A stretch of DNA of 64,000 bases from Alphaproteobacteria bacterium (GTDB lineage: Bacteria; Pseudomonadota; Alphaproteobacteria; Rs-D84; JAERRO01): NCBI GenBank assembly GCA_016735395.1, contig JAERRO010000001.1:2428-66427 (forward strand), in the 5' to 3' direction. Below, piece after piece: positions 50,755-63,433 of this stretch. A program made the position numbers and the translations under genes. The notes under the pieces were generated by a model. That model was not told the DNA's origin. It worked only from the letters and a program-made list of their open reading frames with translations, and searched no databases. Positions within the stretch are counted from its first letter, which is position 1, and each line of letters opens with the position of its first letter.

Positions 50755-51615
50755 GTGTCGTCTATTTCTATCATATTTTCTAAAATAACTCGTGAATACT
50801 CTCAAAAAGGACACAATATGGCTTCTCCGTCAATAATAATTACTGCTTTTTCTATTATAAAGGGGGTCTTCGAAGTTGTCACTTCGTGGAAGCAGACGAA
50901 TTCTACTACTACAAATTCTATCATAAAAAGGACCGAGATAATCGAAAATGATGCTTCTATTACTCCTAAATTTTTTCTAGGATATATTAGCGAAAATTAC
51001 GAATCGGGGAAGGCGAAGACTAAAGCCATCAATCTTGTACGAGACAAAATTACAAGAAAAATTGTCTGTAATCCTATGGATCCCGGCGGATGTAGCTACG
51101 GGAGATGGCAAATTTCTACTAGGCGAAAGACTATGCTAAAATTTCTAAAATATTTGGAGAAACATAATATTAGGTTCTTCGACAAGTTAAATAAAGCAGG
51201 CGGAGAGACTGGTGCGACTAACGGGTGTAATAAATTTATTTCCGCCTGGAGATCTATCGCTACGGATCTGGAGTTTCAAAAGTTAGAATACTTCTTCATC
51301 AAAACATCGCACTATGATGTCCTGCTGTCTCCTATATCTAAAATTTGCCCCGACTATTTTGAAAGACATTATATATTAAAGAATGTACTTTGGTCTTGCG
51401 GAATACAACACGGAAAACGGGGAACTACGATGATCTATAACAGAGCCTTTAAACAGTTAGACGACGATCCTAGCGATCTAGAAATTATCGAGGCCATCTA
51501 TTTTGAAAGAAAGAAACTCGGTACATATTTTTCCGATTGTGTAGATCTGCATAAATCGCTTAAAAGAAGATTCAACGGTGAAGAAAGAAAAGTAATATAT
51601 TTTTTAAATAGTTAG
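50755..51615 (+). CDS. Hypothetical protein (probable start 50818, MASPSII...)
   Basis: AAAGGA RBS 7 nt before the 50818 ATG; hydrophobic N-terminus. A weak lysozyme/transglycosylase-like E-S-G...G.SYG.WQ pattern is not convincing. Confidence 0.4.
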   Translation: MSSISIIFSKITREYSQKGHNMASPSIIITAFSIIKGVFEVVTSWKQTNSTTTNSIIKRTEIIENDASITPKFFLGYISENYESGKAKTKAINLVRDKITRKIVCNPMDPGGCSYGRWQISTRRKTMLKFLKYLEKHNIRFFDKLNKAGGETGATNGCNKFISAWRSIATDLEFQKLEYFFIKTSHYDVLLSPISKICPDYFERHYILKNVLWSCGIQHGKRGTTMIYNRAFKQLDDDPSDLEIIEAIYFERKKLGTYFSDCVDLHKSLKRRFNGEERKVIYFLNS

Positions 51616-52220: not shown

Positions 52221-52832
52221 TTAGAAAATATCTTTTTCTGCAGTCGAGTCTAGTCTAGAAATAATCAAATTCCAGTCAATTAAATTATCTAAAGTAGATC
52301 GAACAAAATCTGCCCGCAAATTTTTGTAGTCTAAATAATAGGCATGTTCCCATACATCTATGACTAGTAAAACTACTCCGCCATACAATAGTGGGGTTTC
52401 GCCATTAAGTGTATTTTTTATTTCTAAAACATTTTCTTTATTGAGTACTAACCATACCCATCCGGAGCCAAAAAGTCCTAAAGAAGATTTTACGAACTCT
52501 TCTTTAAAGTTGTCTACGGAGCCGAAGTCTTTTACGATTAGAGATTTTAATTTACCGTCTTGAAAATCAACTGATTTCTTTAACTGTTTAAAAAACATTG
52601 TGTGATTGTAGTGTTGTCCTGCATTATTAAAAATGCCGACATTCTTATCGCTACTAGACTTCTTTATAACCTGCTCGATATCTAGCCCGACATAGTCCGT
52701 ACCTTCAATCAACTTATTTAGATTATTCACATATGTTTGGTGGTGTTTGCTATAGTGTATCTCTACAGTTTCCGCGGACATATACGGCGATAAATCGTCA
52801 TAGCCATAATCTAGTTTTGGTATCTCAAACAT
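52221..52832 (-). CDS. sodB: Fe/Mn superoxide dismutase
   Basis: FEIPKLDYGYDDLSPYMSAETVEIHYSKHHQTYVNNLN and DVWEHAYYLDY. Start taken at the Met with AAGGAG RBS (52832); the upstream in-frame ATG at 52856 is unlikely. Confidence 0.9.
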   Translation of the reverse strand: MFEIPKLDYGYDDLSPYMSAETVEIHYSKHHQTYVNNLNKLIEGTDYVGLDIEQVIKKSSSDKNVGIFNNAGQHYNHTMFFKQLKKSVDFQDGKLKSLIVKDFGSVDNFKEEFVKSSLGLFGSGWVWLVLNKENVLEIKNTLNGETPLLYGGVVLLVIDVWEHAYYLDYKNLRADFVRSTLDNLIDWNLIISRLDSTAEKDIF

Positions 52833-52901
52833 AATATCTCCTTTTCTACAAGTCATTTATTCTAAAATATAAAATTTTAGAAAAAATGTCAACCCACGAT
52901 T

Positions 52902-52984
52902 TATTCTAGAATTTCATACTTGATTGTTAAACTATAAGTTGATATAGTAGGAATAAATAAAACTACGATCGCAGGGAGGTAAAA
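52902..52984 (+). repeat. Copy 1 of a duplicated promoter/5'-UTR segment. It lies upstream of the 2TM-A gene and contains a TTGATT-17-TATAGT promoter at 52920..52948.
   Basis: 52908..52966 recurs at 54030..54088 with 2 mismatches. In copy 2 it is fused to a 29-bp piece of the sodB 5' coding region. Confidence 0.7.
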
Positions 52985-54001
52985 ATGGATAGAAAAAAGT
53001 TTGAAAATATAATATCACAAATTAATGATACATGTGATAAAATTCAAGAATTTGAAGATGTCACTAAACCTGAATTAATTAAAAAAAATAGATTTGGTGG
53101 AGGGTTTGGGGAGTATCTTTCAAGACATAGTTTTGATGTAAGCAATATTAAAAAGAAAATAAATAAACTATTAGATATAGACTTTAGTATCTTTTATGAT
53201 AATGCTGAGATATTAGCTATTCAAAACTTAATACAAATACTTTTAGATCACTGTAACAGATATAATAATGGTAATTCTGGTTATCTCTTTACAGAAGAAC
53301 ATTATAATAATACCTTTAAAAACAACAGATATGAAATAAATGAACTAATAGATAATTTACAGACAAAAAATTACGAGTTTGAAACCATTATCTCTATAGT
53401 TACTAATAATGAGATAAAAAAATTTTCTGATATAAACAAGATATACGAAAATATAGAGCAGAGTAAAACTGCATTAGAATCTATTAAAACAAATGAAAAT
53501 GCCTCGCAGATCGCTATGGAAAATATTAAGGTGGCTACGAATACCATTGGTGTAATAAAAAAAGCAGAGGGATTTGCAACTATAGCAGAAAAAAGTCATA
53601 AAAAGGCTCAAAAATATGAGTGGGTTATTTTTATATTTGCATTATTGTTGATGGGGCTAGTAGTACTAGCTTTTATAAAAATTGATAGCATATTTTTTTC
53701 TCGTTTAATCTTTTTAGTTCCTCTATTTACAGTTTCACTTATTTATCTCATTATATTAGAAAAAAGATACAGAATCAGGGCTTTTAAATACAAGGATCTG
53801 GAGGTTTCTATTTTATCTTTGTCGGCATATCTAGGAGATATTAGCGATAAACCTATGGAAGAATTGTCTGCTAAAGATACTTTTAAATTAAAGATGGCAG
53901 AATTTTATTATAAGCAGGTTTACGACGAGACTAAAATAAAGGAAAAAAATATTACGGAGCTTGTGACGAGTACCATAAAGAGTGCTAAAGGGACGACCTA
54001 G
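52985..54001 (+). CDS. Two-TM membrane protein A (soluble N-domain + 2 TM helices + C-terminal helix); candidate defense effector
   Basis: 338 aa. GGAGG RBS. TM helices WVIFIFALLLMGLVVLAFI and LIFLVPLFTVSLIYLIIL. Same architecture as 56034..57017. Confidence 0.5.
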   Translation: MDRKKFENIISQINDTCDKIQEFEDVTKPELIKKNRFGGGFGEYLSRHSFDVSNIKKKINKLLDIDFSIFYDNAEILAIQNLIQILLDHCNRYNNGNSGYLFTEEHYNNTFKNNRYEINELIDNLQTKNYEFETIISIVTNNEIKKFSDINKIYENIEQSKTALESIKTNENASQIAMENIKVATNTIGVIKKAEGFATIAEKSHKKAQKYEWVIFIFALLLMGLVVLAFIKIDSIFFSRLIFLVPLFTVSLIYLIILEKRYRIRAFKYKDLEVSILSLSAYLGDISDKPMEELSAKDTFKLKMAEFYYKQVYDETKIKEKNITELVTSTIKSAKGTT

Positions 54002-54103
54002 GCGATAAATCGTCATAGCCATAATCTAGAATTTCATACTTGATTGTTAAACTATAAGTTGATACAGTAGAAATAAATAAAACTAAATTTTGGGAGTTTC
54101 GTT
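54001..54103 (+). repeat. Copy 2 of the duplicated segment: a sodB 5' fragment (= 52787..52815) fused to the promoter region (= 52908..52966), lying upstream of mod. Promoter TTGATT-17-TACAGT at 54040..54068.
   Basis: The 29 bp ggcgataaatcgtcatagccataatctag is identical to sodB codons ~6-15. It is followed directly by aatttcatacttgattgttaaactataagttgata. Confidence 0.7.
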
Positions 54104-56032
54104 ATGGAAGATAATCTATTAAACAGTATTCTGGAGCTTTTCAAAAGTAAAAAACTAGAACAATATTACAACGGGGAAGGTCTTCTAACTAATAAGATAG
54201 AAGAGGATGCCCTTAAACTAGATTCTACATTACTAGAAGTTCTACTAGAAGACGAGGACACACAGAAGGCATTTTTTGCTACGGTAGGAGATATTAAAGT
54301 TTTCGATAAAATAAAATTTCAGTTATACATAAACAGTAAAGAATTTTTAAAAGATAGTTTTACTAAATACAAACAAAACATAGGATTAACAGACGAATAT
54401 GGTAAGGGGCTGAAACAAAATAATAATGTAGTTCTAAACTGGCCGTACAAAGATTGTATTTTGGAAGGCGGGCAAGATAAGGAAGACAAAAGCAGGAAAG
54501 AAGTTTTCTATAATGAAGTGTTGGCTCCCGAATATATAAATATACTTACAGACAAAAAGGCCTTTCATAATGCCGTTAGAGTTAAAGGCGAGGGCGACAA
54601 AGAAGAGCCTGTTACAGACTTTAATAGAAATGAGGACGGAACTATTACAGATAATTTAATGCTAAAGGGAAATAATCTACTAGTTCTACATAGCCTCAAA
54701 TCTCAATTTGCCGGCAAGATAAAACTAATTTATATTGATCCCCCTTATAATACTGGAAACGACGGCTTCAAATATAACGATAGATTTAATCATTCTAGCT
54801 GGCTTACCTTTATGAAAAATAGACTTGAAGTTGCTAGAGAACTTCTAGCCGACGACGGTGTTATCTTCGTTCAATGCGACGACAACGAACAGGCCTATCT
54901 AAAAGTCCTTATGGACGAAGTCTTTGGAAGGGCGAATTTTGTTATTAATTTAGTCTGGGAAAATAAGGAAGGCGGTGGGAAGTCCGATAGTATAACTTTT
55001 AGAAGAAAGCACGAATATATAATTACATATGCAAAAATAATAGATAACATAGAAATATATGGAAGAGATGTTGAGGACGTCGAAAGGTATAGATTATCTG
55101 ATATACATGAAGAGTATCGTGGAAAATATCAATTAATTAAACTAGATAGTGCGAGTCTAGGATATATAAAATCATTGGACTACTATATATTATCTCCAGA
55201 GAATACTCGTATATTTCCTAACAAAGATGACAACAAAATTAGTCGTTGGAGGTGGAATAAAAAGAAATTCGAATGGGGGGTAAAAAATGACTTTGTCGTA
55301 ATAAAAAAAGATAGAGACGATAATTGGGCTGTCTACACTAAACAATATCTAAATTGTGATAACAATGCAAATATTAAGAGAAGGACACTACAGCCAATAG
55401 GTGTAATTTCTAAATTTTCAAACACTCAATCTAATATACATATGAAATCTTTGTTCGGAACTGCTAAGTTTTCTTATTCAAAGCCAGAGCAATTAATTGA
55501 ATTTTATTTACAAATATCAACAAAGCCGGGGGATATAGTTCTAGATTTTTTCGCAGGGAGTGGGACTACGGCGGGGGTAGCTCACAAGATGGAGCGACAA
55601 TGGATCACTATAGAACAGATGGACTATATTCAGGACATCACAAAAGCTAGGCTGAAAAAAGTCGTAGATGGCGAACAGGGAGGTATCTCTAAAGCTATAG
55701 ACTGGAAAGGGGGCGGAGAATTCGTCTATATGGAAATGATAGAGAAAAATAATCGTTATTTTAATGAAATTATACAGTCGGAATCAGACGAAACTTTAAA
55801 AATACTATACAAACAAATTAAAGAAGAAACTTTCTTTAGATATGATATAGACCTAAAGGGACTAGATGCTCTAATGGACGACTCCATTTCCTTAAAACAT
55901 AAAAAGGAAGCCCTCACTCAATGCCTAGATAAAAATCACCTCTATTTGAACTACTCTAGCATCGACGACCGAAACTTTAATAAAGACGAAACCGTCTCTA
56001 ACCTCAATAAAAAATTCTACAAGGAGGTGTAG
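54104..56032 (+). CDS. mod: Type III restriction-modification methyltransferase (Mod), N6-adenine, beta class
   Basis: Motif IV IYIDPPYNTG precedes motif I DFFAGSGTTAGVA (permuted beta-class order); 642 aa. No simple-sequence repeat inside. Confidence 0.9.
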   Translation: MEDNLLNSILELFKSKKLEQYYNGEGLLTNKIEEDALKLDSTLLEVLLEDEDTQKAFFATVGDIKVFDKIKFQLYINSKEFLKDSFTKYKQNIGLTDEYGKGLKQNNNVVLNWPYKDCILEGGQDKEDKSRKEVFYNEVLAPEYINILTDKKAFHNAVRVKGEGDKEEPVTDFNRNEDGTITDNLMLKGNNLLVLHSLKSQFAGKIKLIYIDPPYNTGNDGFKYNDRFNHSSWLTFMKNRLEVARELLADDGVIFVQCDDNEQAYLKVLMDEVFGRANFVINLVWENKEGGGKSDSITFRRKHEYIITYAKIIDNIEIYGRDVEDVERYRLSDIHEEYRGKYQLIKLDSASLGYIKSLDYYILSPENTRIFPNKDDNKISRWRWNKKKFEWGVKNDFVVIKKDRDDNWAVYTKQYLNCDNNANIKRRTLQPIGVISKFSNTQSNIHMKSLFGTAKFSYSKPEQLIEFYLQISTKPGDIVLDFFAGSGTTAGVAHKMERQWITIEQMDYIQDITKARLKKVVDGEQGGISKAIDWKGGGEFVYMEMIEKNNRYFNEIIQSESDETLKILYKQIKEETFFRYDIDLKGLDALMDDSISLKHKKEALTQCLDKNHLYLNYSSIDDRNFNKDETVSNLNKKFYKEV

Positions 56033-56033
56033 G

Positions 56034-57017
56034 GTGGATAACAGAGAAAGACTTATAAAGACTATACAGAAAAAATTTTTTAGTAGGTTTGATATTTTTT
56101 ACGACCTAAACGACAGTGTATGGTTCGAGTTTGTAGATAAAGTTAGTGGTTATAGTCCTATATATGATTTTACGGATTACATTACACCGTATCTTATAAA
56201 GGGTATAGTAGATAAAATTGATACCACTACTCTCAAAGGCATAGTTAAACACATAGCTAACATTTGGGCTATAATAGACACATCTAGGTATAAAAACAAA
56301 GATTCATATTCAGGTAAAGATCAGATAATTTTTTATAAAGAAAATCTAAACGAACAAGACGACATAATAACAGAATTTAAAAAAATAAAAAGTTTATTGG
56401 AAAAATATAAATCTATTCTCGGAGAAAAGGATGAAGATCTGAAAGAAGAACATATGATAGAAACGAAATCATTCGCAGAATCATTCCTCGAGTCTAAAAA
56501 CAGTTATAATAGAAATATATGGATTATGTACATAGTACTACTTTTAACCTTAATAGCTATTGTGGGATTATATTTAATTGGGACTAAAACTTTCAACAAT
56601 TTAGATTTTATTAGTACAATAATATCACGGTTATTATTTTCTGCTCCGCTTATTTTCTTTGCATTTATTATAACGAAAAATCTATTTAACTTTCAATCTA
56701 TGTATGAAGCATACAACCATAAACAAAGGGTCGCAGAAGCTTTTTTAATTTTAGATCTAAAAATGGATAAAGAAAAAGAATGGCTTCTTAAAAAAACATT
56801 TCACGGGGGAAGCATCGAGCAAGGTCGCCTAGAACAAATTAACAAAGAGAAAGATCTATTATCTGGGACTCTTATGTCGGTAGTTCAAGAAAATCCTACA
56901 CATTTTTTAACAAAAGATAAATCTATGAAGAAATACCTAAAAGAACTAAAAGAAATTAAAGACCTGTTTATGGCTCCTAATATTATAGAAAGCAATCGAG
57001 TAGATAAAGGTAAATAA
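56034..57017 (+). CDS. Two-TM membrane protein B, embedded between mod and res; GTG start coupled to the mod stop
   Basis: GTG at 56034 lies 1 nt after the mod TAG, with AAGGAGG at 56021..56027. TM helices IWIMYIVLLLTLIAIVGLYLI and LLFSAPLIFFAFIIT. The stop overlaps the next ATG (TAATG). Confidence 0.55.
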   Translation: MDNRERLIKTIQKKFFSRFDIFYDLNDSVWFEFVDKVSGYSPIYDFTDYITPYLIKGIVDKIDTTTLKGIVKHIANIWAIIDTSRYKNKDSYSGKDQIIFYKENLNEQDDIITEFKKIKSLLEKYKSILGEKDEDLKEEHMIETKSFAESFLESKNSYNRNIWIMYIVLLLTLIAIVGLYLIGTKTFNNLDFISTIISRLLFSAPLIFFAFIITKNLFNFQSMYEAYNHKQRVAEAFLILDLKMDKEKEWLLKKTFHGGSIEQGRLEQINKEKDLLSGTLMSVVQENPTHFLTKDKSMKKYLKELKEIKDLFMAPNIIESNRVDKGK

Positions 57018-57030
57018 TGAATGATAATTT
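57001..57030 (+). repeat. 30-bp direct repeat, copy 1 (RBS + ATG + first 4 codons MNDN); copy 2 is at 57966..57995, the res start
   Basis: tagATAAAGGTAAATAATGAATGATAATTT vs taaATAAAGGTAAATAATGAATGATAATTT: 29/30 identical; the two flank the DUF3800 gene. Confidence 0.75.
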
Positions 57031-57856
57031 TATTATCTTTGTAGATGAATCAGGAGATCATAGCCTGTCTAAAATAAATCCTGAATTCCCTATATTCAAT
57101 CTAGTTTTTGTAGTATTCGAACAGAATCATTACTGTAATGTCGTTCTGCCAAAATTTAATCTACTTAAGTTAAAATACTTTAATAGTACTAATGTAATAT
57201 TTCACGAAAGAGAAATTAGAAAATCACTAAATAACTTTACAATACTAAAAAATTCCGTAGTAAGAAATAATTTTATAAATGATGTAGATACATTTTTAAA
57301 AAATATATCTTTCGAAATCATTACAATTAATTTTTTAAAAGAAAAAAATGCTAGGGAAGAAGTTAATATATACTCAAAATGTATGGAGGTAGCTCTTCCT
57401 ATTATTCAAAAATTTTTAGAAAAAAACTCTAGTTTAGAAAACAAAACTTTAATTACTTTTGAAGGGAGGGGGAAACAAGAAGATAGATCTCTAGAATTAG
57501 AATTCTTGAGGGAAACAAAGGACTATCAATATAACAACCTAAATATAGACATCATAACTAAACAGTCAAATTCTACCGGGCTACAGATCGCAGACTTAAT
57601 AGCTAGACCTATCGCAAATGAAATATTAAACTCGAAAAAAATAAACGATATTAAAGACTCTAATTGTGTAGGTTTCGGAATCGACAAAATAACAATAAAT
57701 GAAATGTTTCCTAAACCTTGCCACAATAGAGCTTTTGGATGTATAAAACCTAATATATATACTTTGCAAGTAATAATAAAACATGAAGTAATAAATAATA
57801 TGAAGGAAGATCTAAATTTTAATATAAAGCGAAAAAGGGCGGTTACACCACCCTAA
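57017..57856 (+). CDS. DUF3800-like protein
   Basis: N-terminal FIIFVDESGD motif and later GLQIADLIARPIA motif, as in the DUF3800 family; 279 aa. Start overlaps the stop of the 2TM-B gene. Confidence 0.45.
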   Translation: MNDNFIIFVDESGDHSLSKINPEFPIFNLVFVVFEQNHYCNVVLPKFNLLKLKYFNSTNVIFHEREIRKSLNNFTILKNSVVRNNFINDVDTFLKNISFEIITINFLKEKNAREEVNIYSKCMEVALPIIQKFLEKNSSLENKTLITFEGRGKQEDRSLELEFLRETKDYQYNNLNIDIITKQSNSTGLQIADLIARPIANEILNSKKINDIKDSNCVGFGIDKITINEMFPKPCHNRAFGCIKPNIYTLQVIIKHEVINNMKEDLNFNIKRKRAVTPP

Positions 57857-57981
57857 AGACGCCGATTGAGCATTCCCAATCCATTTATAATATATTATAT
57901 ACTATAAAAATTAAGAATGCAAGAAAAATAAAAAAAAGGGGACTTGACAAAGTCTAAAGATTAAATAAATAAAGGTAAATA

Positions 57982-60570
57982 ATGAATGATAATTTAGTAT
58001 ATTCTTTAAATGTCCTAGCAGGAGAAGATATTTTTAACCCTAGTGAAATTCCTGACTATATTACAAATAATGTCGCTCATAAACTGCGGGACTATCAAAC
58101 CGAAGCCCTAGCTAGATTTCGTTTCTATATCGACGATGATGGATACAAGAACAAAAAGAAGCCGATACATCTGCTGTTTCATATGGCTACGGGGTCAGGG
58201 AAGACTATCGTTATGGCTGGCTGTATTCTAGAACTATATAAAAAGGGGCATAGAAATTTCCTGTTCTTTGTTAACTCCGACAATATAATTGACAAAACTA
58301 AACATAATCTTCTATATCAAAATTCTAATAAATATCTGTTCAATAAAGATAAAATTATTATAGATAATAAGGCCGTTGCCGTAAAAGTCGTAGAAAATTT
58401 TAACGAAGCCGATGACGATTCTATCAATATATGTTTCAATACTATTCAAAAACTGCACGGAAACCTTATCAACACAGGCGAAAATGGAATTTCTACCGAA
58501 ACTTTTAAGGATACGAAAGTTGCTATAATATCCGACGAAGCCCATCACATCAATAGTATGACTAAAAAAGAATCCAAGGATGAACAAAACTGGGAGAACT
58601 CCGTTCTAGGTATTCTAAATGCGAATAATGACAATGTTATGCTAGAGTTTACCGCGACTATGGGTATGAAAAACGAGGCTATAGCAAAAAAATACAACGA
58701 TAAAGTTATATACGACTACACTTTCTTGAAATTTAATATAGACAAATATTCTAAAAATGTTTTTACTCTCGCCTCAACTTTCGATAATAACTATAAAATT
58801 TTACAGGCGATCGTTCTATCTCAATATAGACTAAAACTAGCAGTGCATCATAAGGTAAACCCGCTGGTTAAACCTGTCATTCTTGTGAAATCTAAATTTA
58901 TTAAAGATAGCACAAATGACTACAAAGAATTTTACGAGTTCTTGGAAAGACTAAAAGAAACAGATCTAGATAAAATTGAAAATGGCTCCGAGTCTAAAGA
59001 AATAAAATCTGCCTTTGAATTCTTCAAAAAAAATAAAATCACTAATGAAAATCTAGTCCTAGAGCTAAAGCAAGCCTTTAAAGTCGAAAATAGTGTTATC
59101 ACGGACTCAACAAAATCTACTCTTAATGCAAAGGTTCTACTCAATACACTAGAAGATGAAAAGAACAAAATTAGAATCATATTCGTCGTTAATCAACTTA
59201 ATGAAGGATGGGATGCTATCAATCTATATGACATCGTAAGGCTATATAATACTAAAGATAAAGGTAATGATGCTACTGTATCCGAGGCTCAACTAATAGG
59301 AAGGGGGGCTAGATACTGCCCCTTTACTACCAAAGACTCAGACGAAGATAAGTATAAACGAAAATTTGATGCCGATGCTAATAACGAACTTTCTATCCTT
59401 GAAGAATTCTACTTTCACTGCGATGATAATAGCAAATATATATCAGAGCTAAAGGCAGAACTAAAAACGCAAGGTATCATAGAAGAAGAAGTCCCCAACC
59501 TAGTTAGTATTGAGCTGAAAGAGAGTTTTAAAGAATCTGACTTCTATGAAAAAGGTTGTATTTTTCTAAATAAACAAGAACCTACTGATAAAGCAAAAAA
59601 CTTTAAAGAAGTCAAAAAACTTATAAAAAGTCAAGCATTTAAATACAATTCTACTATAGAAGATGGTAGGTCTAATAGTAAAAATAATCTATTAAAGGGT
59701 GATATTCTAAATGAAAACTCCAGTACAAAAAGAACAGAAACTTTAGATAAAGATGATTTTAGTAAACAGATTATTCAAACTGCTTTTGATAGAAATCCAT
59801 ACTTTAATTTTGATAAAATGAAAAAATACTGTGGGGGAAAAGTTGAGTCTATGAAGGACTTTATAGATCAAGTTATGGAGAATGTAAAAGTTGAGGTTAG
59901 ATATCAAGGAAACAAAGATACATTATTAACCCCGCGAGTGAAACTAGATATATTTTCTAATGTCCTAGGGGAAATCTCGAAAATTATGGAGAAGAATAAC
60001 ATAGAAAAGAGGGGGACGAGGGAATTCTCACATAAGAAAATATTAGAAATATTTATAGATAAAAAATTCAAGAGTAGTGGTACTGAAAAAGATATGAGGG
60101 GGCATAAGTGGTTCGCCTATGACAAAAATTACGGTACGAGTTTAGAAAATGATTTTATAAAATATATTATAGAAAAAAAAGAAGAGATAGAAGACAAATA
60201 TGCAGAGTTTTATCTATTAAGAAGTGAACGGTTTTTTAGGCTGTACGACTTCGAACAAGGTCGAGGATTTGAGCCTGACTTTGTTATGTTTTTTAAGAAA
60301 AATGGAAGTGAAGAATTTTCTAACCTACAAGTGTTTATAGAGCCTAAAGGTGGTCATCTATTAGAACATGATAAATGGAAATCTAAATTTTTAGAGAGCA
60401 TAAATAAAAATGTAGAATTTGGTGACGATCTATTTAATGATTCTAAAGATTTTAAAATAATAGGTCTCCCATTTTATGTTGACAATAAAGAACTACTGAT
60501 CGACGAAAAGAAGTTTACAGAACGAAAATTTAAAGAGGCTTTTAAAGAACAAATATTTAACAACGACTAA
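57982..60570 (+). CDS. res: Type III restriction enzyme Res subunit (SF2 helicase + C-terminal PD-(D/E)xK endonuclease)
   Basis: LRDYQTEAL; motif I MATGSGKT; motif II IISDEAHH; C-terminal nuclease FEPDFVMFF...VFIEPKG; 862 aa. Confidence 0.9.
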   Translation: MNDNLVYSLNVLAGEDIFNPSEIPDYITNNVAHKLRDYQTEALARFRFYIDDDGYKNKKKPIHLLFHMATGSGKTIVMAGCILELYKKGHRNFLFFVNSDNIIDKTKHNLLYQNSNKYLFNKDKIIIDNKAVAVKVVENFNEADDDSINICFNTIQKLHGNLINTGENGISTETFKDTKVAIISDEAHHINSMTKKESKDEQNWENSVLGILNANNDNVMLEFTATMGMKNEAIAKKYNDKVIYDYTFLKFNIDKYSKNVFTLASTFDNNYKILQAIVLSQYRLKLAVHHKVNPLVKPVILVKSKFIKDSTNDYKEFYEFLERLKETDLDKIENGSESKEIKSAFEFFKKNKITNENLVLELKQAFKVENSVITDSTKSTLNAKVLLNTLEDEKNKIRIIFVVNQLNEGWDAINLYDIVRLYNTKDKGNDATVSEAQLIGRGARYCPFTTKDSDEDKYKRKFDADANNELSILEEFYFHCDDNSKYISELKAELKTQGIIEEEVPNLVSIELKESFKESDFYEKGCIFLNKQEPTDKAKNFKEVKKLIKSQAFKYNSTIEDGRSNSKNNLLKGDILNENSSTKRTETLDKDDFSKQIIQTAFDRNPYFNFDKMKKYCGGKVESMKDFIDQVMENVKVEVRYQGNKDTLLTPRVKLDIFSNVLGEISKIMEKNNIEKRGTREFSHKKILEIFIDKKFKSSGTEKDMRGHKWFAYDKNYGTSLENDFIKYIIEKKEEIEDKYAEFYLLRSERFFRLYDFEQGRGFEPDFVMFFKKNGSEEFSNLQVFIEPKGGHLLEHDKWKSKFLESINKNVEFGDDLFNDSKDFKIIGLPFYVDNKELLIDEKKFTERKFKEAFKEQIFNND

Positions 60571-60653: not shown

Positions 60654-61715
60654 ATGACAAATGTGAAAAATAACAGTTTAAATCTTTTTGATTATGCGAC
60701 AAGTGAACTTTCTCAAGATGCTTTTTTGTGCTGGCTACTAGCCCATCATCCTATATGTCAAAACGAAGATAGTGAAATAAAAGATAAAGATATTTCTCAA
60801 TGTGCAGAAAATTTATTAAATGAACTACTAGGAAAACATTCAACAGAACTAGGAAAAATAACAGAACTAGAAATAAAAAGGCAATATAAAAAGATTGATA
60901 TATTAGTGATAATCAATAAAAAATATGGACTAATCATAGAAGATAAAACCGATACATCTGAACACGGAAACCAATTGGGTAAATACTTTAAGGTTGTAGA
61001 GGAAAAGGGATTAATCCCTCTAGGAATATATTTTAAAACTGGTGATGAACTAAAAAGAGATGAAATAAAAAGAGATAAAATAAAAAGAGATGAAATAAAA
61101 AGAGATGAAATAAAAAATAAGAGTGATGAAGATATAGAATATACATATAAAACATTTTATAGAGATGAGTTATTAGAGGTATTAAAAAAACACAAAACAA
61201 AAAATGATATCTTTACTTCATTCTATAATAGGCTAGACAAATTTGAAGAAGATTATAAATCATACGAAAACAACAAAGTTGCCGATTGGTCTAGTAGAGC
61301 ATGGTCAGGATTTTTTCATAATAAACTATATAAAAATGATAGACAAAATTTTGATAAATTCTGGTATGGATATGTTCCAAATCGAAGTGGCGGTTTTCTA
61401 TGCTTCGCATGGGAGTTTAGATACATAGACAAAATAAAAGTATATTTTCAATTTGAAATAAGAAAAGTAGGTAATACGATGAATCCTATTTTAGTAGTTA
61501 AAACATCTTGTGAAAATAAACCGCTACCAGATGTAGCCCTCAATAAAATAGATGAATATATAGGTAAAGACTTGTGGAAGAAATTTAAGAGGCGGAGAAG
61601 TGATGGAAAAACATCTTCTAGGCTAATCTATATTTTAGAAGATCTTAATAATATGGAATATGGCGAGCTTATAGAATCTATTGAGAAAGCAACAAAATCT
61701 TTTGATTTAAAATAG
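60654..61715 (+). CDS. Hypothetical PD-(D/E)xK nuclease-like protein with an internal KRDEI tandem peptide repeat
   Basis: N-terminal SELSQDAFLCWLLAHHP and KKIDILVIINKKYGLIIEDKTDTSEH (D...E-D-K arrangement). Central LKRDEIKRDKIKRDEIKRDEIK encoded by 4 x 15-bp repeats. Confidence 0.4.
   Translation: MTNVKNNSLNLFDYATSELSQDAFLCWLLAHHPICQNEDSEIKDKDISQCAENLLNELLGKHSTELGKITELEIKRQYKKIDILVIINKKYGLIIEDKTDTSEHGNQLGKYFKVVEEKGLIPLGIYFKTGDELKRDEIKRDKIKRDEIKRDEIKNKSDEDIEYTYKTFYRDELLEVLKKHKTKNDIFTSFYNRLDKFEEDYKSYENNKVADWSSRAWSGFFHNKLYKNDRQNFDKFWYGYVPNRSGGFLCFAWEFRYIDKIKVYFQFEIRKVGNTMNPILVVKTSCENKPLPDVALNKIDEYIGKDLWKKFKRRRSDGKTSSRLIYILEDLNNMEYGELIESIEKATKSFDLK
61053..61112 (+). repeat. 4 tandem copies of a 15-bp unit AAAAGAGATGAAATA (one copy with G->A), in-frame within 60654..61715
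   Basis: Read directly: aaaagagatgaaata / aaaagagataaaata / aaaagagatgaaata / aaaagagatgaaata. Confidence 0.85.
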
Positions 61716-61773
61716 AAAGTATTTTGTTCTGTGTTTTTAGGATTTTTACTCTAGTATTACTATTGTTTTATAT

Positions 61774-62724
61774 TTAAGATTGAGAAGGATATTCACATAA
61801 TATAAAAAATCCATTTCTTTCAACTGGTTCTCCCAAATTTTTGCCTTCTCTATATTTTTCTGCAAAAGGTTTATGGGAACATGAAATAGTTATCTTATCG
61901 TTATCGATCTCGAACATAAAATTTCCTCCTTGATTGTTCGTAAACATATCTACTCTAGAGGAGTCTCTATATTTATTGTAATTGATACAAGCGGAGGGGG
62001 CGTTTCCTATCATCGTTATTCCAGGGTTTACTATCTCTAGAAATGAAAAGCCTCTACCAGAATCCCTCCCATGATGAGGAGCTATAAATAAATCTATATT
62101 TGAAATATCATTCTTATGTTTTTTAATTAAATGTTCCCAAGTCTTATCATCACTATCACCACAAAATAATATCTTAAAATTACCTGTCTTATATAAGATA
62201 ACTCCAGAACAATCATTCCAGTCTCCAATTATATCAGCCTTTTGTATTAAATCTTTGGTTGGAGACAAAATCTTTAATCCGTCTTCTATTATAAAGCTTT
62301 TTTTAACGTCATCTTGTAAAGAGTGAGCTTTTTTTAATAGTTCTTTATAACAGTCCCAATCTTTTTTGTCTGTGTCAGAAATTTTTTCATCTGTTTTCTT
62401 TGTTTTATATCCCCAAAAATTATCAATCCCGATACATTCTTTTAATGCCTTTATTCCTTTTAAATGGTCCATATCTGGATGAGTTAAAAAAAATCTAAAT
62501 ATGGCTTCGTCTTTATAATACTTTTTTAAAAAATCGATAGGATTTATAGGATGTTTTTTCTCTCCGAAGTTTCCTCTCGTAGATGCTGTGACTGTTTCCG
62601 ATAACTGGATAGAATCTTTTAAAGACTTCCCGTTGTTAATATCAATCATCGTTAGTCTACCAGAATAATGTTGTATTATTGAGCTATCTCCATTACCTAC
62701 ATTTAGAAAATATATTTTTGACAT
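61774..62724 (-). CDS. Metallo-beta-lactamase-fold hydrolase (ComEC C-terminal/Rec2-like family)
   Basis: LNVGNGDSSII, HxHxDH-type LTHPDMDHLKG, FCGD, APHHGR; 316 aa. 11 bp downstream of the membrane-protein gene. Confidence 0.55.
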   Translation of the reverse strand: MSKIYFLNVGNGDSSIIQHYSGRLTMIDINNGKSLKDSIQLSETVTASTRGNFGEKKHPINPIDFLKKYYKDEAIFRFFLTHPDMDHLKGIKALKECIGIDNFWGYKTKKTDEKISDTDKKDWDCYKELLKKAHSLQDDVKKSFIIEDGLKILSPTKDLIQKADIIGDWNDCSGVILYKTGNFKILFCGDSDDKTWEHLIKKHKNDISNIDLFIAPHHGRDSGRGFSFLEIVNPGITMIGNAPSACINYNKYRDSSRVDMFTNNQGGNFMFEIDNDKITISCSHKPFAEKYREGKNLGEPVERNGFFILCEYPSQS

Positions 62725-62735
62725 TTTTTATCCTT

Positions 62736-63218
62736 TTAGTTTATATCTATTATTTTTACTATTTTAATAGCATGTTTTCTTATAGAAAAAGTAAACAAGA
62801 TTATAAATGCTAAGAATATCAGTGACATTGAAAACATTCCTTTAAACATTGTTACTAAAAACAGAATGATAAACAGAGTATTTATATTTCTTGAAAAACC
62901 ATATTCCCTTGAGAGAAGTTCTAATCTTGGATTTGTATTTAAAGCTTTGTTAAATAGAGTATGATCTCTCCACGGAATTATTTTAATAGATTTGAAACAA
63001 TTTTCTAGAACTAGAGAACCTAATCTACTAATAACAGTACCGATAAAATAAGAGAAAGAGAGATAAATGATATTTAAATTTACTCCAGAAAATTGGTCTA
63101 ATCGGTTCAAATCTACTTTTATATTTATAAGACTAAGACCTATTATAAATAATATTCCTATGAAAATTTTATTTACTACTTCATAAAACGGTATTCCTGT
63201 TTTCATATAGTCCTCCAC
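62736..63218 (-). CDS. Hypothetical polytopic membrane protein (3-4 TM), co-oriented with the MBL hydrolase
   Basis: 160 aa. Hydrophobic segments IFIGILFIIGLSLI, IIYLSFSYFIGTVI, LFIILFLVTMF and LIFLAFIILFTF. Confidence 0.4.
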   Translation of the reverse strand: MEDYMKTGIPFYEVVNKIFIGILFIIGLSLINIKVDLNRLDQFSGVNLNIIYLSFSYFIGTVISRLGSLVLENCFKSIKIIPWRDHTLFNKALNTNPRLELLSREYGFSRNINTLFIILFLVTMFKGMFSMSLIFLAFIILFTFSIRKHAIKIVKIIDIN

Positions 63219-63242
63219 TTTCCTTTATTTACTGCAACAACT

Positions 63243-63317
63243 TATAGTGTCGTTACTATGATTGGTGGGGGCAGGGGGATTCGAACCCTCGACCTGCTGA
63301 TTAAGAGTCAGTTGCTC
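63243..63317 (-). tRNA. tRNA-Lys (anticodon CUU)
   Basis: Reverse complement GGGGGCATAGCTCAGTGGTAGAGCAACTGACTCTTAATCAGCAGGTCGAGGGTTCGAATCCCCCTGCCCCCACCA; perfect acceptor stem, loop CTCTTAA with U33/A37, CCA encoded; 75 nt. Confidence 0.8.
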
Positions 63318-63433
63318 TACCACTGAGCTATGCCCCCATAATTTACTTACCTATATATAGACCGTTTATAAATAATTTTCAATACTAGACGACTACTTAT
63401 TTTGATCTTCTATTTCAATAGATCTATTCTACT

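What the first reader, a model, noticed from the sequence alone, without database searches (positions are those of the whole stretch)
56021..57030. Tight translational coupling mod -> 2TM-B (GTG start) -> DUF3800 (TAATG overlap)
The 2TM-B ORF starts with GTG one nucleotide after the mod TAG. A strong AAGGAGG sequence sits inside the end of mod. The 2TM-B stop overlaps the DUF3800 ATG (TAATG). This strongly implies stoichiometric co-expression of Mod, the membrane protein and DUF3800 from one transcript. The two inserted genes would then be functional parts of the system rather than passengers.
Basis: seen in the sequence. Interest (0 to 1): 0.6.

Follow-up and report, generated by a model that had tools for sequence, protein, structure and literature searches.

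The report
Cargo genes inside a restriction operon
Two foreign genes sit tightly packed between the two genes of a type III restriction-modification operon, but the tight packing is inherited from the insertion site and does not show that they belong to the enzyme; one of them brings its own conserved small RNA partner.

Summary
AAGGAGG (56021-56027) lies 6 nt before the GTG at 56034, the only possible start of a 327-codon ORF. That ORF's TAA overlaps the DUF3800 ATG (TAATG, 57015-57019).

The inference that the inserted genes are integral parts of the system is only partly supported:
- In 51 of 52 uninterrupted relatives of this type III family, res starts within 8 nt of the mod stop, so tight coupling after mod is ancestral.
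- 15 of 67 relatives carry unrelated cargo in the same slot (Bro-N, Abi_2, PD-(D/E)XK, AAA_13, RhuM-Fic, DUF4917 and others), mostly equally tight.
- The TAATG junction is a 30-nt duplicate of the res initiation region (57001-57030 = 57966-57995).
- 2TM-B is a near-orphan whose few relatives lie in prophage or mobile-element contexts.
- Relatives of this DUF3800 are solitary and common in viral contigs.
- DUF3800 carries its own convergent structured sRNA (57813-57896, minus strand), found at all 83 homologous loci examined.

Best reading: separately acquired accessory modules riding on the mod transcript, like other toxin or abortive-infection genes embedded in R-M operons.

The parts
52786..52965 (.). 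Copy 1 of the duplicated sod-5' / intergenic segment that flanks 2TM-A (52786-52814 and 52902-52965, with 87 nt between them that are absent from copy 2)
   Evidence: the repeat finder D3 and D7; pairwise alignment
52985..54001 (+). 2TM-A: 338-aa cargo ORF with two hydrophobic helices and a strong SD (GGAGGT); no family assignment
   Evidence: absent from all 80 related type III loci
54001..54085 (.). Copy 2 of the duplicated segment: a 29-nt sod fragment fused to the 64-nt promoter-proximal region, directly upstream of mod
   Evidence: 29/29 and 61/64 identical
54104..56032 (+). mod: type III methyltransferase, 642 aa
   Evidence: Pfam N6_N4_Mtase 5.6e-47 and TypeIII_RM_meth 3.2e-16; PADLOC MTase_III 1.4e-170
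56021..56027 (+). AAGGAGG Shine-Dalgarno inside the last mod codons, 6 nt before the GTG
56034..57017 (+). 2TM-B: 327-aa cargo ORF with a GTG start. Hydrophobic helices at about residues 163-185 and 194-216, then a YEAYNHKQRVAEAF motif shared with a tiny family linked to prophages and mobile elements
57001..57030 (.). Copy 1 of the 30-nt junction repeat: the last 5 sense codons and stop of 2TM-B, the TAATG, and the first 4.7 codons of DUF3800
   Evidence: the repeat finder D6, 29/30 identical with 27 nt exact
57017..57856 (+). DUF3800: 279-aa protein with an RNase H2-like fold. The conserved acidic residues are intact. The C-terminal tail runs into the sRNA terminator
   Evidence: Pfam 1.8e-12; alignment of 36 sequences; AF2 pLDDT 83.9; Foldseek best hit 1EKE RNase HII, E 3e-5
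57813..57896 (-). Conserved structured sRNA convergent with DUF3800: P1 hairpin, GGCG, a long terminator stem and a U-run; the transcribed core is about 57887-57827
   Evidence: Covariance model built without the window scores 44.9 bits, E 4e-12, the only hit in the window; covariation statistics
57894..57922 (-). Putative promoter of the sRNA: TTGCAT, 17 nt, TATAAT
   Evidence: Read from the sequence; a -10-like hexamer at the same distance in 27 of 39 relatives by a strict TAnnnT test, often preceded by TTGAC-like boxes
57966..57995 (.). Copy 2 of the 30-nt junction repeat: the res ribosome-binding region, ATG and first codons
57982..60570 (+). res: type III restriction subunit, 862 aa, separated from DUF3800 by 125 nt
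   Evidence: Pfam ResIII 4.7e-31; PADLOC REase_III 7.4e-124

Best explanation
The locus is an intact type III restriction-modification operon (mod, res). Its ancestrally coupled mod-res junction has been used as an insertion slot.

Three foreign units were added in separate events:
1. 2TM-A, upstream of mod, flanked by a duplicated promoter / sod-5' segment.
2. 2TM-B, directly behind mod.
3. A DUF3800 gene together with its own convergent small RNA, inserted at what was then the 2TM-B/res junction. This insertion duplicated 30 nt of the res translation-initiation region, so DUF3800 now uses a copy of the res ribosome-binding site, start codon and first four codons (MNDN).

Shown by sequence and comparison: the junction anatomy, the duplications, the variable cargo in relatives, and the independence of the two cargo families.

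Inferred: mod, 2TM-B and DUF3800 are transcribed from the mod promoter. 2TM-B is translated from its strong SD and GTG, and DUF3800 by termination-reinitiation at TAATG. res is read through 125 nt further on.

Inferred function: 2TM-B is a membrane-acting exclusion or abortive-infection effector of phage origin. DUF3800 is an RNase H-like nuclease kept in check, or guided, by its antisense sRNA. Both are autonomous accessory defence or addiction modules that ride on the R-M transcript, as other toxin and Abi genes embedded in R-M operons do. They are not subunits of the enzyme.
For: Junction anatomy and the single possible start.

Ancestral coupling: in 51 of 52 uninterrupted relatives res starts -47 to +8 nt from the mod stop; the other is at +95.

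Variable cargo: 15 of 67 relatives have 0.6-2.2 kb between the mod stop and the res start. The inserts encode Bro-N (5 loci), Abi_2, PDDEXK_2, PDDEXK_3, AAA_13, RhuM+Fic, DUF4917, Peptidase_M78 and unknowns. None encodes 2TM-B or DUF3800.

Junction duplications flank the cargo in several places:
- window 57001-57030 and 57966-57995;
- window 52786-52965 and 54001-54085;
- L069, where 30 nt of the mod 3' end are repeated after a Bro-N cargo;
- L014, 16 nt.

The closest DUF3800 relatives are solitary genes in unrelated neighbourhoods, and 131 occur in viral contigs.

The sRNA is present at all 83 DUF3800 loci examined: 78 by pattern and the other 5 by covariance model. 16 of 19 pairs show compensatory changes, and 92.3% of cells are paired against 77.8% in shuffles and 41-58% when partners are slid. 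A model built without the window hits 57813-57896 on the minus strand at E 4e-12.

The 2TM-B family has only four other members. One sits beside a CI-like repressor in a prophage, another beside KilA-N and an ISL3 transposase.

DUF3800 is intact: the invariant D10, E11, D14, H15, E149, R151, D156, Q190 and D193 are kept, and the fold is RNase HII-like.

Literature: toxin and Abi genes embedded in R-M operons (PMC3710099, PMC12707154); DUF3800 as a defence-associated RNase H-like domain linked to ncRNAs (PMC5737381, PMC7736814, PMC10910872, PMC13594972).
Against: No expression data exist, so co-transcription and coupling are inferred from sequence only.

The order of the insertions rests on parsimony from the repeats. 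The 30-nt repeat could also have arisen with DUF3800 already present.

The closest DUF3800 relative also begins with MND, which leaves some doubt about which copy of the repeat is the original.

The defence role of 2TM-B rests on the context of four distant relatives and on having two hydrophobic helices. Its AlphaFold model was unusable (pLDDT 42.7).

Embedding in an R-M operon is compatible with a functional link to the R-M enzyme, as with PrrC. Lack of conservation does not exclude such a link in this strain.
Confidence: 0.6

Rival explanations
1. Mod, 2TM-B and DUF3800 (and Res) form one integrated system. Tight coupling sets their stoichiometry, and the membrane protein and nuclease act as effector or guard subunits of the R-M complex.
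For: The junctions are as tight as they can be, and the SD is the strongest in the window. Embedded accessory proteins can bind their R-M enzyme, as PrrC does with EcoprrI (PMC3710099, PMC12707154). Both cargo ORFs are intact and have native-like codon usage.
Against: Tightness is a property of the slot, whatever fills it. The TAATG is a duplicated res start. There is no co-occurrence of these genes with type III systems, or with each other, in 80 + 83 loci. DUF3800 has its own conserved RNA partner and is mostly solitary or viral. res, the true partner of Mod (Mod2Res1 in EcoP15I, PMC4490356), is the one gene not coupled here.
Confidence: 0.15
2. 2TM-B and DUF3800 are a two-gene system of their own (nuclease sensor plus membrane effector) that landed as one cassette between mod and res.
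For: They are adjacent with overlapping stop and start. Pairs of a membrane effector and a nuclease are common in defence systems (general knowledge).
Against: The 30-nt repeat brackets DUF3800 plus its sRNA only, not 2TM-B. DUF3800 relatives have no 2TM neighbour. 2TM-B relatives have no DUF3800 neighbour.
Confidence: 0.1
3. The inserted genes are inert passengers or decaying remnants, and the tight junctions have no functional consequence.
For: 2TM-B is a near-orphan. The DUF3800 C-terminus is atypical, with an internal insertion and a tail that reads into the sRNA terminator. The host appears to be an AT-rich, uncultured alphaproteobacterium known only from metagenome assemblies.
Against: All the ORFs are long and intact in DNA where about 9% of random codons would be stops. 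The DUF3800 catalytic residues are conserved. The sRNA keeps its structure and its promoter. The junction repeats are nearly perfect, which points to recent events.
Confidence: 0.1

Closest known systems
Toxin and abortive-infection genes embedded in R-M operons (PrrC in EcoprrI, RloC, Abi2/AbiD/F, RhuM-Doc; Anantharaman et al. 2013, PMC3710099; review PMC12707154)
   Same: Foreign accessory genes sit inside an R-M operon and are co-oriented with it. The cargo families found in relatives of this locus (Abi_2, AAA_13, RhuM+Fic) are the ones described for such embedding.
   Different: The described cases are mostly type I loci. Here the slot is the mod-res junction of a type III system. The cargo (2TM-B, DUF3800 + sRNA) is not HEPN or ABC. 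No interaction with the R-M enzyme is shown.
Type III R-M systems such as EcoP15I (Mod2Res1, PMC4490356) and the HI_1054-like Res subfamily
   Same: Mod has the N6_N4_Mtase and TypeIII_RM_meth domains and Res has the ResIII helicase domain. The gene order is mod then res.
   Different: 1.95 kb of cargo separates mod from res, and res has lost the tight junction seen in 51 of 52 uninterrupted relatives.
DUF3800-associated RNA motifs DUF3800-I to -XI (Weinberg et al. 2017, PMC5737381) and the Bradyrhizobiaceae sRNA BjrC68 (Rfam RF02353)
   Same: A structured RNA with a Rho-independent terminator lies next to a DUF3800 gene on the opposite strand. BjrC68 has the same two-hairpin architecture and aligns to one member of the family (L128, 31.8 bits).
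   Different: No Rfam 15 family reaches its threshold on the window or on the 21 related loci (3 + 18) scanned. BjrC68 is defined only for Bradyrhizobiaceae and has no stated link to DUF3800. I could not check whether the element equals one of Weinberg's motifs II-XI, because the supplement is not held.
DUF3800 in other defence contexts: retron type VII (PMC7736814), TPR-DUF3800 with Cas12a2/a3 (PMC10910872, PMC13594972), Csx32 (bioRxiv 10.64898/2026.08.25.746378)
   Same: The same Pfam domain, the same RNase H2-like fold, and the same N-terminal DE motif.
   Different: Here it is a stand-alone protein of 240-280 aa without an RT, TPR or Cas partner, paired instead with an sRNA. The biochemical function is unknown in all these contexts.
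Type I toxin-antitoxin pairs with convergent 3'-overlapping antisense RNA (for example txpA/RatA and bsrG/SR4; from my own knowledge)
   Same: A small RNA is transcribed convergently and ends at, or overlaps, the 3' end of the protein gene. In the window the overlap is 44 nt.
   Different: The protein is a 279-aa RNase H-like enzyme, not a small hydrophobic peptide. Neither toxicity nor antisense control has been tested.

Membership tests
Type III restriction-modification system | Mod subunit with an N6/N4 methyltransferase domain and the type III Mod N-terminal domain | tested here: met
   PF01555 5.6e-47, PF12564 3.2e-16; PADLOC MTase_III 1.4e-170
Type III restriction-modification system | Res subunit with an SF2 helicase (ResIII) domain, full length, co-oriented downstream of mod | tested here: met
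   PF04851 4.7e-31; PADLOC REase_III 7.4e-124 over residues 18-836
Type III restriction-modification system | mod and res adjacent and tightly coupled (the family norm) | tested here: not met
   1,949 nt separate the mod stop from the res start, against 8 nt or less in 51 of 52 uninterrupted relatives
Translationally coupled gene pair | Stop and start within a few nucleotides, with the ribosome-binding site inside the upstream ORF | tested here: met
   mod/2TM-B: 1-nt gap with AAGGAGG inside mod. 2TM-B/DUF3800: TAATG with AAGG 6 nt upstream
Translationally coupled gene pair | Translation of the downstream gene depends on translation of the upstream gene | not testable with these tools
   Needs fusions, stop-codon shifts or ribosome profiling
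DUF3800 (PF12686) | Pfam match above the gathering score | tested here: met
   48.6 bits against a cut-off of 21
DUF3800 (PF12686) | Conserved N-terminal DE(S)GD motif and C-terminal QxxD motif | tested here: met
   D10, E11, G13, D14, H15, Q190 and D193 are invariant in the 36-sequence alignment
DUF3800 (PF12686) | RNase H2-like fold | tested here: met
   AF2 pLDDT 83.9; best PDB match 1EKE RNase HII, E 3e-5, TM 0.44/0.53
Rfam DUF3800-I / DUF3800-IX and other curated DUF3800 RNA motifs | Covariance-model match | tested here: not met
   No such family at E <= 10 on 57780-58000, nor on the 21 related loci that carry the element
BjrC68 sRNA (RF02353) | Covariance-model match at the gathering score (39 bits) | tested here: not met
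   No hit in the window. The relative L128 scores 31.8 bits with the same architecture
R-M-embedded guard or abortive-infection effector (PrrC paradigm) | Gene located inside an R-M operon | tested here: met
R-M-embedded guard or abortive-infection effector (PrrC paradigm) | Held inactive by the R-M complex and released when the complex is inhibited | not testable with these tools
   Needs biochemistry or phage assays
Known 2TM defence effectors or any curated family (Pfam including SLATT families, PADLOC, NCBIfam, PHROGs) | Profile match for 2TM-A or 2TM-B | tested here: not met
   No significant hit. The relatives P0123 and P0125 hit only the unknown-function PHROGs 30912 and 34659
2TM-A and 2TM-B as paralogues | Detectable sequence or profile homology | tested here: not met
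   BLASTP E 0.011, confined to the hydrophobic region; hhalign probability 11%

The most novel reading that the evidence does not exclude
Two linked claims.

1. The mod-res junction of this type III family is a general, recombination-accessible cargo slot. Accessory modules enter it by duplicating the junction, so both flanking genes stay intact and the newcomer inherits a ready-made initiation region.

2. One such module is a widespread, largely phage-borne two-part element that has not been recognised as a unit: a DUF3800 RNase H-like nuclease plus a convergent sRNA of about 60-75 nt (BjrC68-like). It would work as an RNA-controlled or RNA-guided toxin or defence nuclease.
Probability: 0.3. 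Interest if true: 0.7.

Novelty: new variant of a known kind. Interest (0 to 1): 0.45.

Why it matters
For the finding as written, the lesson is methodological. Tight stop/start junctions inside an R-M operon do not show that an inserted gene is a subunit, because the slot imposes them on whatever lands there.

The locus also offers two testable leads:
- It is a clear example, with junction duplications still visible, of how accessory genes enter a type III mod-res junction without breaking either gene.
- In every locus examined, a large DUF3800 subfamily is tied to one specific structured sRNA with its own promoter and terminator. This gives a concrete handle on DUF3800, whose function is still unknown although it recurs in retron, Cas12 and Cas13 contexts. 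It also gives a possible gene partner to the orphan sRNA BjrC68.

Tried and rejected
2TM-B homologues. A word-indexed search found only the protein itself. Exhaustive HMMER found two marginal hits. A profile search added three more. A scan of viral contigs with the profile found none. One weak tblastn hit fell in a temperate Providencia phage.

2TM-B structure. The AlphaFold model was unusable (pLDDT 42.7), so no fold search was run on it.

2TM-A and 2TM-B as paralogues. Not supported.

Curated families. Pfam, PADLOC, NCBIfam and PHROGs gave nothing for either 2TM protein.

Promoter and terminator scan. Uninformative in this AT-rich DNA: 49 promoter-like sites against 40 expected, 4 terminator-like sites against 3.2 expected.

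Rfam. No DUF3800 motif was found. The supplement of Weinberg et al. is not held, so I could not compare the element with motifs II-XI.

Strict DNA pattern for the element in public collections. Only 2 + 1 matches; the pattern was too rigid. The protein-anchored route worked instead.

A prfB-like +1 frameshift fusing Mod to 2TM-B (an SD-like sequence next to a stop, with 2TM-B in the +1 frame). Considered and rejected from the sequence: the P-site codon GUG cannot re-pair on UGU, and the SD directly abuts the codon instead of lying 3 nt upstream.

A downstream start for 2TM-B. Rejected: no alternative start exists for 121 codons, and the N-terminal part has coding-type codon usage.
Full report
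1. THE OBSERVATION

- mod (54104-56032, 642 aa) ends ...TAC AAG GAG GTG TAG.
- AAGGAGG occupies 56021-56027.
- One base after the TAG, a GTG at 56034 opens a 327-codon ORF that ends with TAA at 57015-57017.
- The last A of that TAA is the first base of the DUF3800 ATG (57017), giving TAATG.

The GTG is the only usable start. The frame is closed upstream at 55949, there is no ATG, GTG or TTG before 56034, and the next ones are at codons 122 and 141. Codons 1-140 have the codon usage of the window's other genes in this frame only: +0.25 bits per codon against 0.24 +/- 0.07, with every other frame negative. An open frame of this length has a chance probability of about 4e-14 at this base composition.

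The heptamer count is not unusual: 3 in the window against 6.6 expected. Its position makes it the strongest SD among 46 putative genes, which normally use AAGG(A) about 6 nt upstream. Two other public assemblies match the window with no mismatch over their whole overlap, which includes the mod/2TM-B junction.

2. THE LOCUS

mod and res (57982-60570) are a full-length type III pair. Three genes do not belong to that pair.

2TM-A (52985-54001) and 2TM-B (56034-57017) each have a long helical N-terminal part, two hydrophobic helices and a C-terminal tail. Neither matches any Pfam, PADLOC, NCBIfam or PHROG family. They are not detectably related to each other.

DUF3800 (57017-57856) is a clear family member. 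It keeps all the invariant acidic and Q/D positions. Its model is confident (pLDDT 83.9) and resembles RNase HII most closely among solved structures (1EKE, E 3e-5). This agrees with published views of the domain (PMC7736814, PMC10910872).

The region lies in a small defence island: a PDDEXK_4 / PDC-S26-like gene, a PDC-M48A/B-like pair, and a tRNA gene.

3. COMPARISON WITH RELATED TYPE III LOCI

Eighty loci encoding Mod relatives at 35-60% identity were retrieved. In 67 of them both mod and res could be placed.

In 52 of these, res follows mod directly. In 51 of the 52 the distance from the mod stop to the res start is -47 to +8 nt, typically ATGA or TAATG overlaps or gaps of 1-5 nt; the remaining locus has 95 nt. 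A tight junction after mod is therefore the ancestral state of the family.

In the other 15 loci (22%), 0.6-2.2 kb lie between the mod stop and the res start. The inserts encode unrelated proteins:
- Bro-N domain proteins in five loci;
- one occurrence each of Abi_2, PDDEXK_2, PDDEXK_3, AAA_13, RhuM+Fic, DUF4917 and Peptidase_M78 (the last with two small ORFs; Abi_2 shares L013 with one of the Bro-N proteins);
- four unknowns, one of which looks membrane-bound.

None encodes 2TM-A, 2TM-B or DUF3800.

In 14 of the 15 loci the first cargo gene starts -26 to +16 nt from the mod stop. The slot is tight whatever fills it. Several of these families are the ones already described as embedded in R-M operons, with PrrC/EcoprrI as the studied paradigm (PMC3710099, PMC12707154).

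4. TRACES OF HOW THE CARGO ARRIVED

A 30-nt direct repeat (29/30 identical, 27 nt exact) brackets DUF3800: 57001-57030 and 57966-57995. Each copy holds ATAAAGGTAAATA-ATG-AATGATAATTT. This is a weak SD, the ATG and four codons, which is why DUF3800 and Res both begin with MNDN.

In the upstream copy the same bases encode the last residues and the stop of 2TM-B. The TAATG overlap is thus a copy of the res initiation region.

The simplest history is that 2TM-B once abutted res with this overlap, and that the DUF3800 unit was then inserted with a duplication of the junction. This order is an inference. The closest DUF3800 relative also starts with MND, so the direction of copying is not certain.

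2TM-A is likewise bracketed. A 64-nt promoter-proximal segment (95% identical), joined to a 29-nt fragment of the sod 5' end, recurs immediately after the 2TM-A stop and in front of mod.

The same signature exists elsewhere. In L069, 30 nt of the mod 3' end (within a diverged copy of about 57 nt) are repeated after a Bro-N cargo, just before res. L014 has a 16-nt flanking repeat.

Insertion with junction duplication keeps both flanking genes intact and hands the newcomer a working initiation site. Such repeats would also allow precise loss by recombination.

5. THE CARGO FAMILIES ARE INDEPENDENT OF EACH OTHER AND OF TYPE III SYSTEMS

2TM-B is a near-orphan. Exhaustive HMMER over 1.84 billion representatives, followed by a profile search, gave four relatives. 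They share the TM1-TM2 region and an (E/A)YxHK..(V/I)AE motif.
- One sits next to a CI-like repressor (HTH_3 + Peptidase_S24) in a prophage.
- Another sits beside a KilA-N protein and an ISL3 transposase.
- Two match unknown-function PHROGs.
None has a DUF3800 neighbour.

DUF3800 has 645 relatives in the word-indexed search. The three closest on long contigs are solitary genes among housekeeping genes. 131 relatives occur in IMG/VR viral contigs.

6. DUF3800 BRINGS ITS OWN RNA PARTNER

Reading the DNA after the stop codons of the closest relatives showed a shared element.

It is present at 78 of 83 DUF3800 loci by a simple pattern. A covariance model found it at the remaining five.

On the strand opposite to DUF3800 it reads 5'-AAAUGG-[P1 hairpin]-GGCG-[long stem]-UUUCGCUUUU. 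RNAalifold gives 19 pairs, and 16 of them show compensatory changes. Of the pair cells, 92.3% form standard pairs, against 77.8% in shuffles (0 of 500 shuffles reach the observed value) and 41-58% when partners are slid.

Frequent G-U pairs fix the strand; pair 38-79 is G-U in 38 of 39 sequences.

A model built without the window sequence hits the window once, at 57813-57896 on the minus strand (44.9 bits, E 4e-12). In about 780 kb of Mod loci it hits only once.

A -10-like hexamer lies at a constant distance upstream, often preceded by a TTGAC-like box. In the window these are TTGCAT, 17 nt, TATAAT at 57922-57894. The element therefore looks like an independently transcribed sRNA of about 60-75 nt that converges on DUF3800.

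In the window the DUF3800 ORF has lost the usual stop and runs 44 nt into the sRNA terminator.

No Rfam 15 family reaches threshold. The nearest is BjrC68, a Bradyrhizobium sRNA of unknown function with the same architecture. It aligns to one member at 31.8 bits, below its 39-bit threshold.

Weinberg et al. reported eleven unrelated RNA motifs next to DUF3800 genes (PMC5737381). I could not check whether this element is one of them.

The 30-nt repeat encloses both the DUF3800 gene and the sRNA with its promoter, so they arrived together as one module.

7. HOW IT MOST LIKELY WORKS

Shown: the anatomy of the junctions, the duplications, the variability of the slot, the independence of the two cargo families, and the conserved sRNA.

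Inferred:
- mod, 2TM-B and DUF3800 are read from one transcript that starts at the duplicated promoter region before mod.
- 2TM-B initiates at its strong SD and GTG, either de novo or by ribosomes finishing mod.
- DUF3800 initiates by reinitiation at TAATG on a weak SD.
- res is reached by read-through across 125 nt that contain the antisense sRNA gene, which may lower res expression.

Functionally, I take 2TM-B to be a membrane-acting exclusion or abortive-infection protein of phage origin. I take DUF3800 + sRNA to be an RNA-controlled RNase H-like nuclease module. Both would act as accessory lines of defence, or as addiction modules, that benefit from the R-M promoter.

A PrrC-like dependence on the R-M enzyme remains possible but has no support here.

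8. VERDICT

The coupling itself is ordinary. The lasting points of interest are the mod-res slot with its junction duplications and the DUF3800-sRNA module.

Noticed in passing
window 57813-57896 (minus strand); also L003, L005, L007, L095-L174: A conserved structured sRNA converges on DUF3800 and has its own promoter and terminator. It is present at all 83 DUF3800 loci examined. No Rfam family reaches threshold; BjrC68 (RF02353) is the nearest.
   Followed up: yes
window 52786-52965 and 54001-54085: 2TM-A is bracketed by a duplicated segment made of a 29-nt fragment of the sod 5' end plus 64 nt of the region upstream of mod. Copy 2 lacks the 87 nt between the two blocks; both blocks are followed by TCTAG. 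The same promoter-proximal sequence therefore precedes both 2TM-A and mod.
   Followed up: partly
L069 9816-9845 and 10745-10774; L014 9810 and 10322: Cargo genes in other type III loci are also flanked by direct repeats of the original junction. In L069 the last 30 nt of mod are repeated just before res.
   Followed up: partly
L030 7905-9818 and 9984-11867: Two tandem full-length mod genes precede a Bro-N cargo and res in a Spongiihabitans MAG. L029 has a second, fragmented mod-like stretch.
   Followed up: no
window 57927-57949 (minus strand) and 57866-57917: A second terminator-like hairpin (GACUUUGUCAAGUC, then CCCC and a U8 run) lies upstream of the sRNA promoter on the minus strand, together with a long AT-rich hairpin. 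The 166-nt region folds with z = -6.2 on the minus strand against -2.8 on the plus strand.
   Followed up: partly
window 52974-52980 and 56021-56029: The two membrane cargo genes carry the two strongest SD sequences of the window (GGAGGT and AAGGAGG), while native genes use AAGG(A). This may reflect a foreign origin. The 2TM-B SD forms the last three mod codons (K-E-V) after the family-conserved FY.
   Followed up: partly
window 60654-63337: Downstream of res lie a PDDEXK_4 / PDC-S26-like gene, a divergent PDC-M48B (MBL-fold) and PDC-M48A (membrane) pair on the minus strand, and a tRNA gene at 63266-63337. Together with the R-M locus they form a small defence island next to a tRNA.
   Followed up: partly
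window 61044-61118: Four to five tandem 15-nt repeats inside the PDDEXK_4-like ORF encode (K/E)RDEI repeats.
   Followed up: no
window 50755-51615: An ORF with a T6SS VgrG3-like C-terminal domain (4e-27) lies just upstream of the sod gene and the R-M locus.
   Followed up: no
L007 9060-9100 and 9398-9822: A second, partial copy of the sRNA 5' half (CCTAATCCATTT...) lies about 300 nt downstream of the DUF3800 module, next to a cluster of five tRNA genes.
   Followed up: no
L050 19-104: The only sRNA-model hit among the Mod loci lies about 7.9 kb upstream of a Gardnerella type III mod gene, at the edge of the fetched DNA. I did not check whether a DUF3800 gene is adjacent.
   Followed up: no
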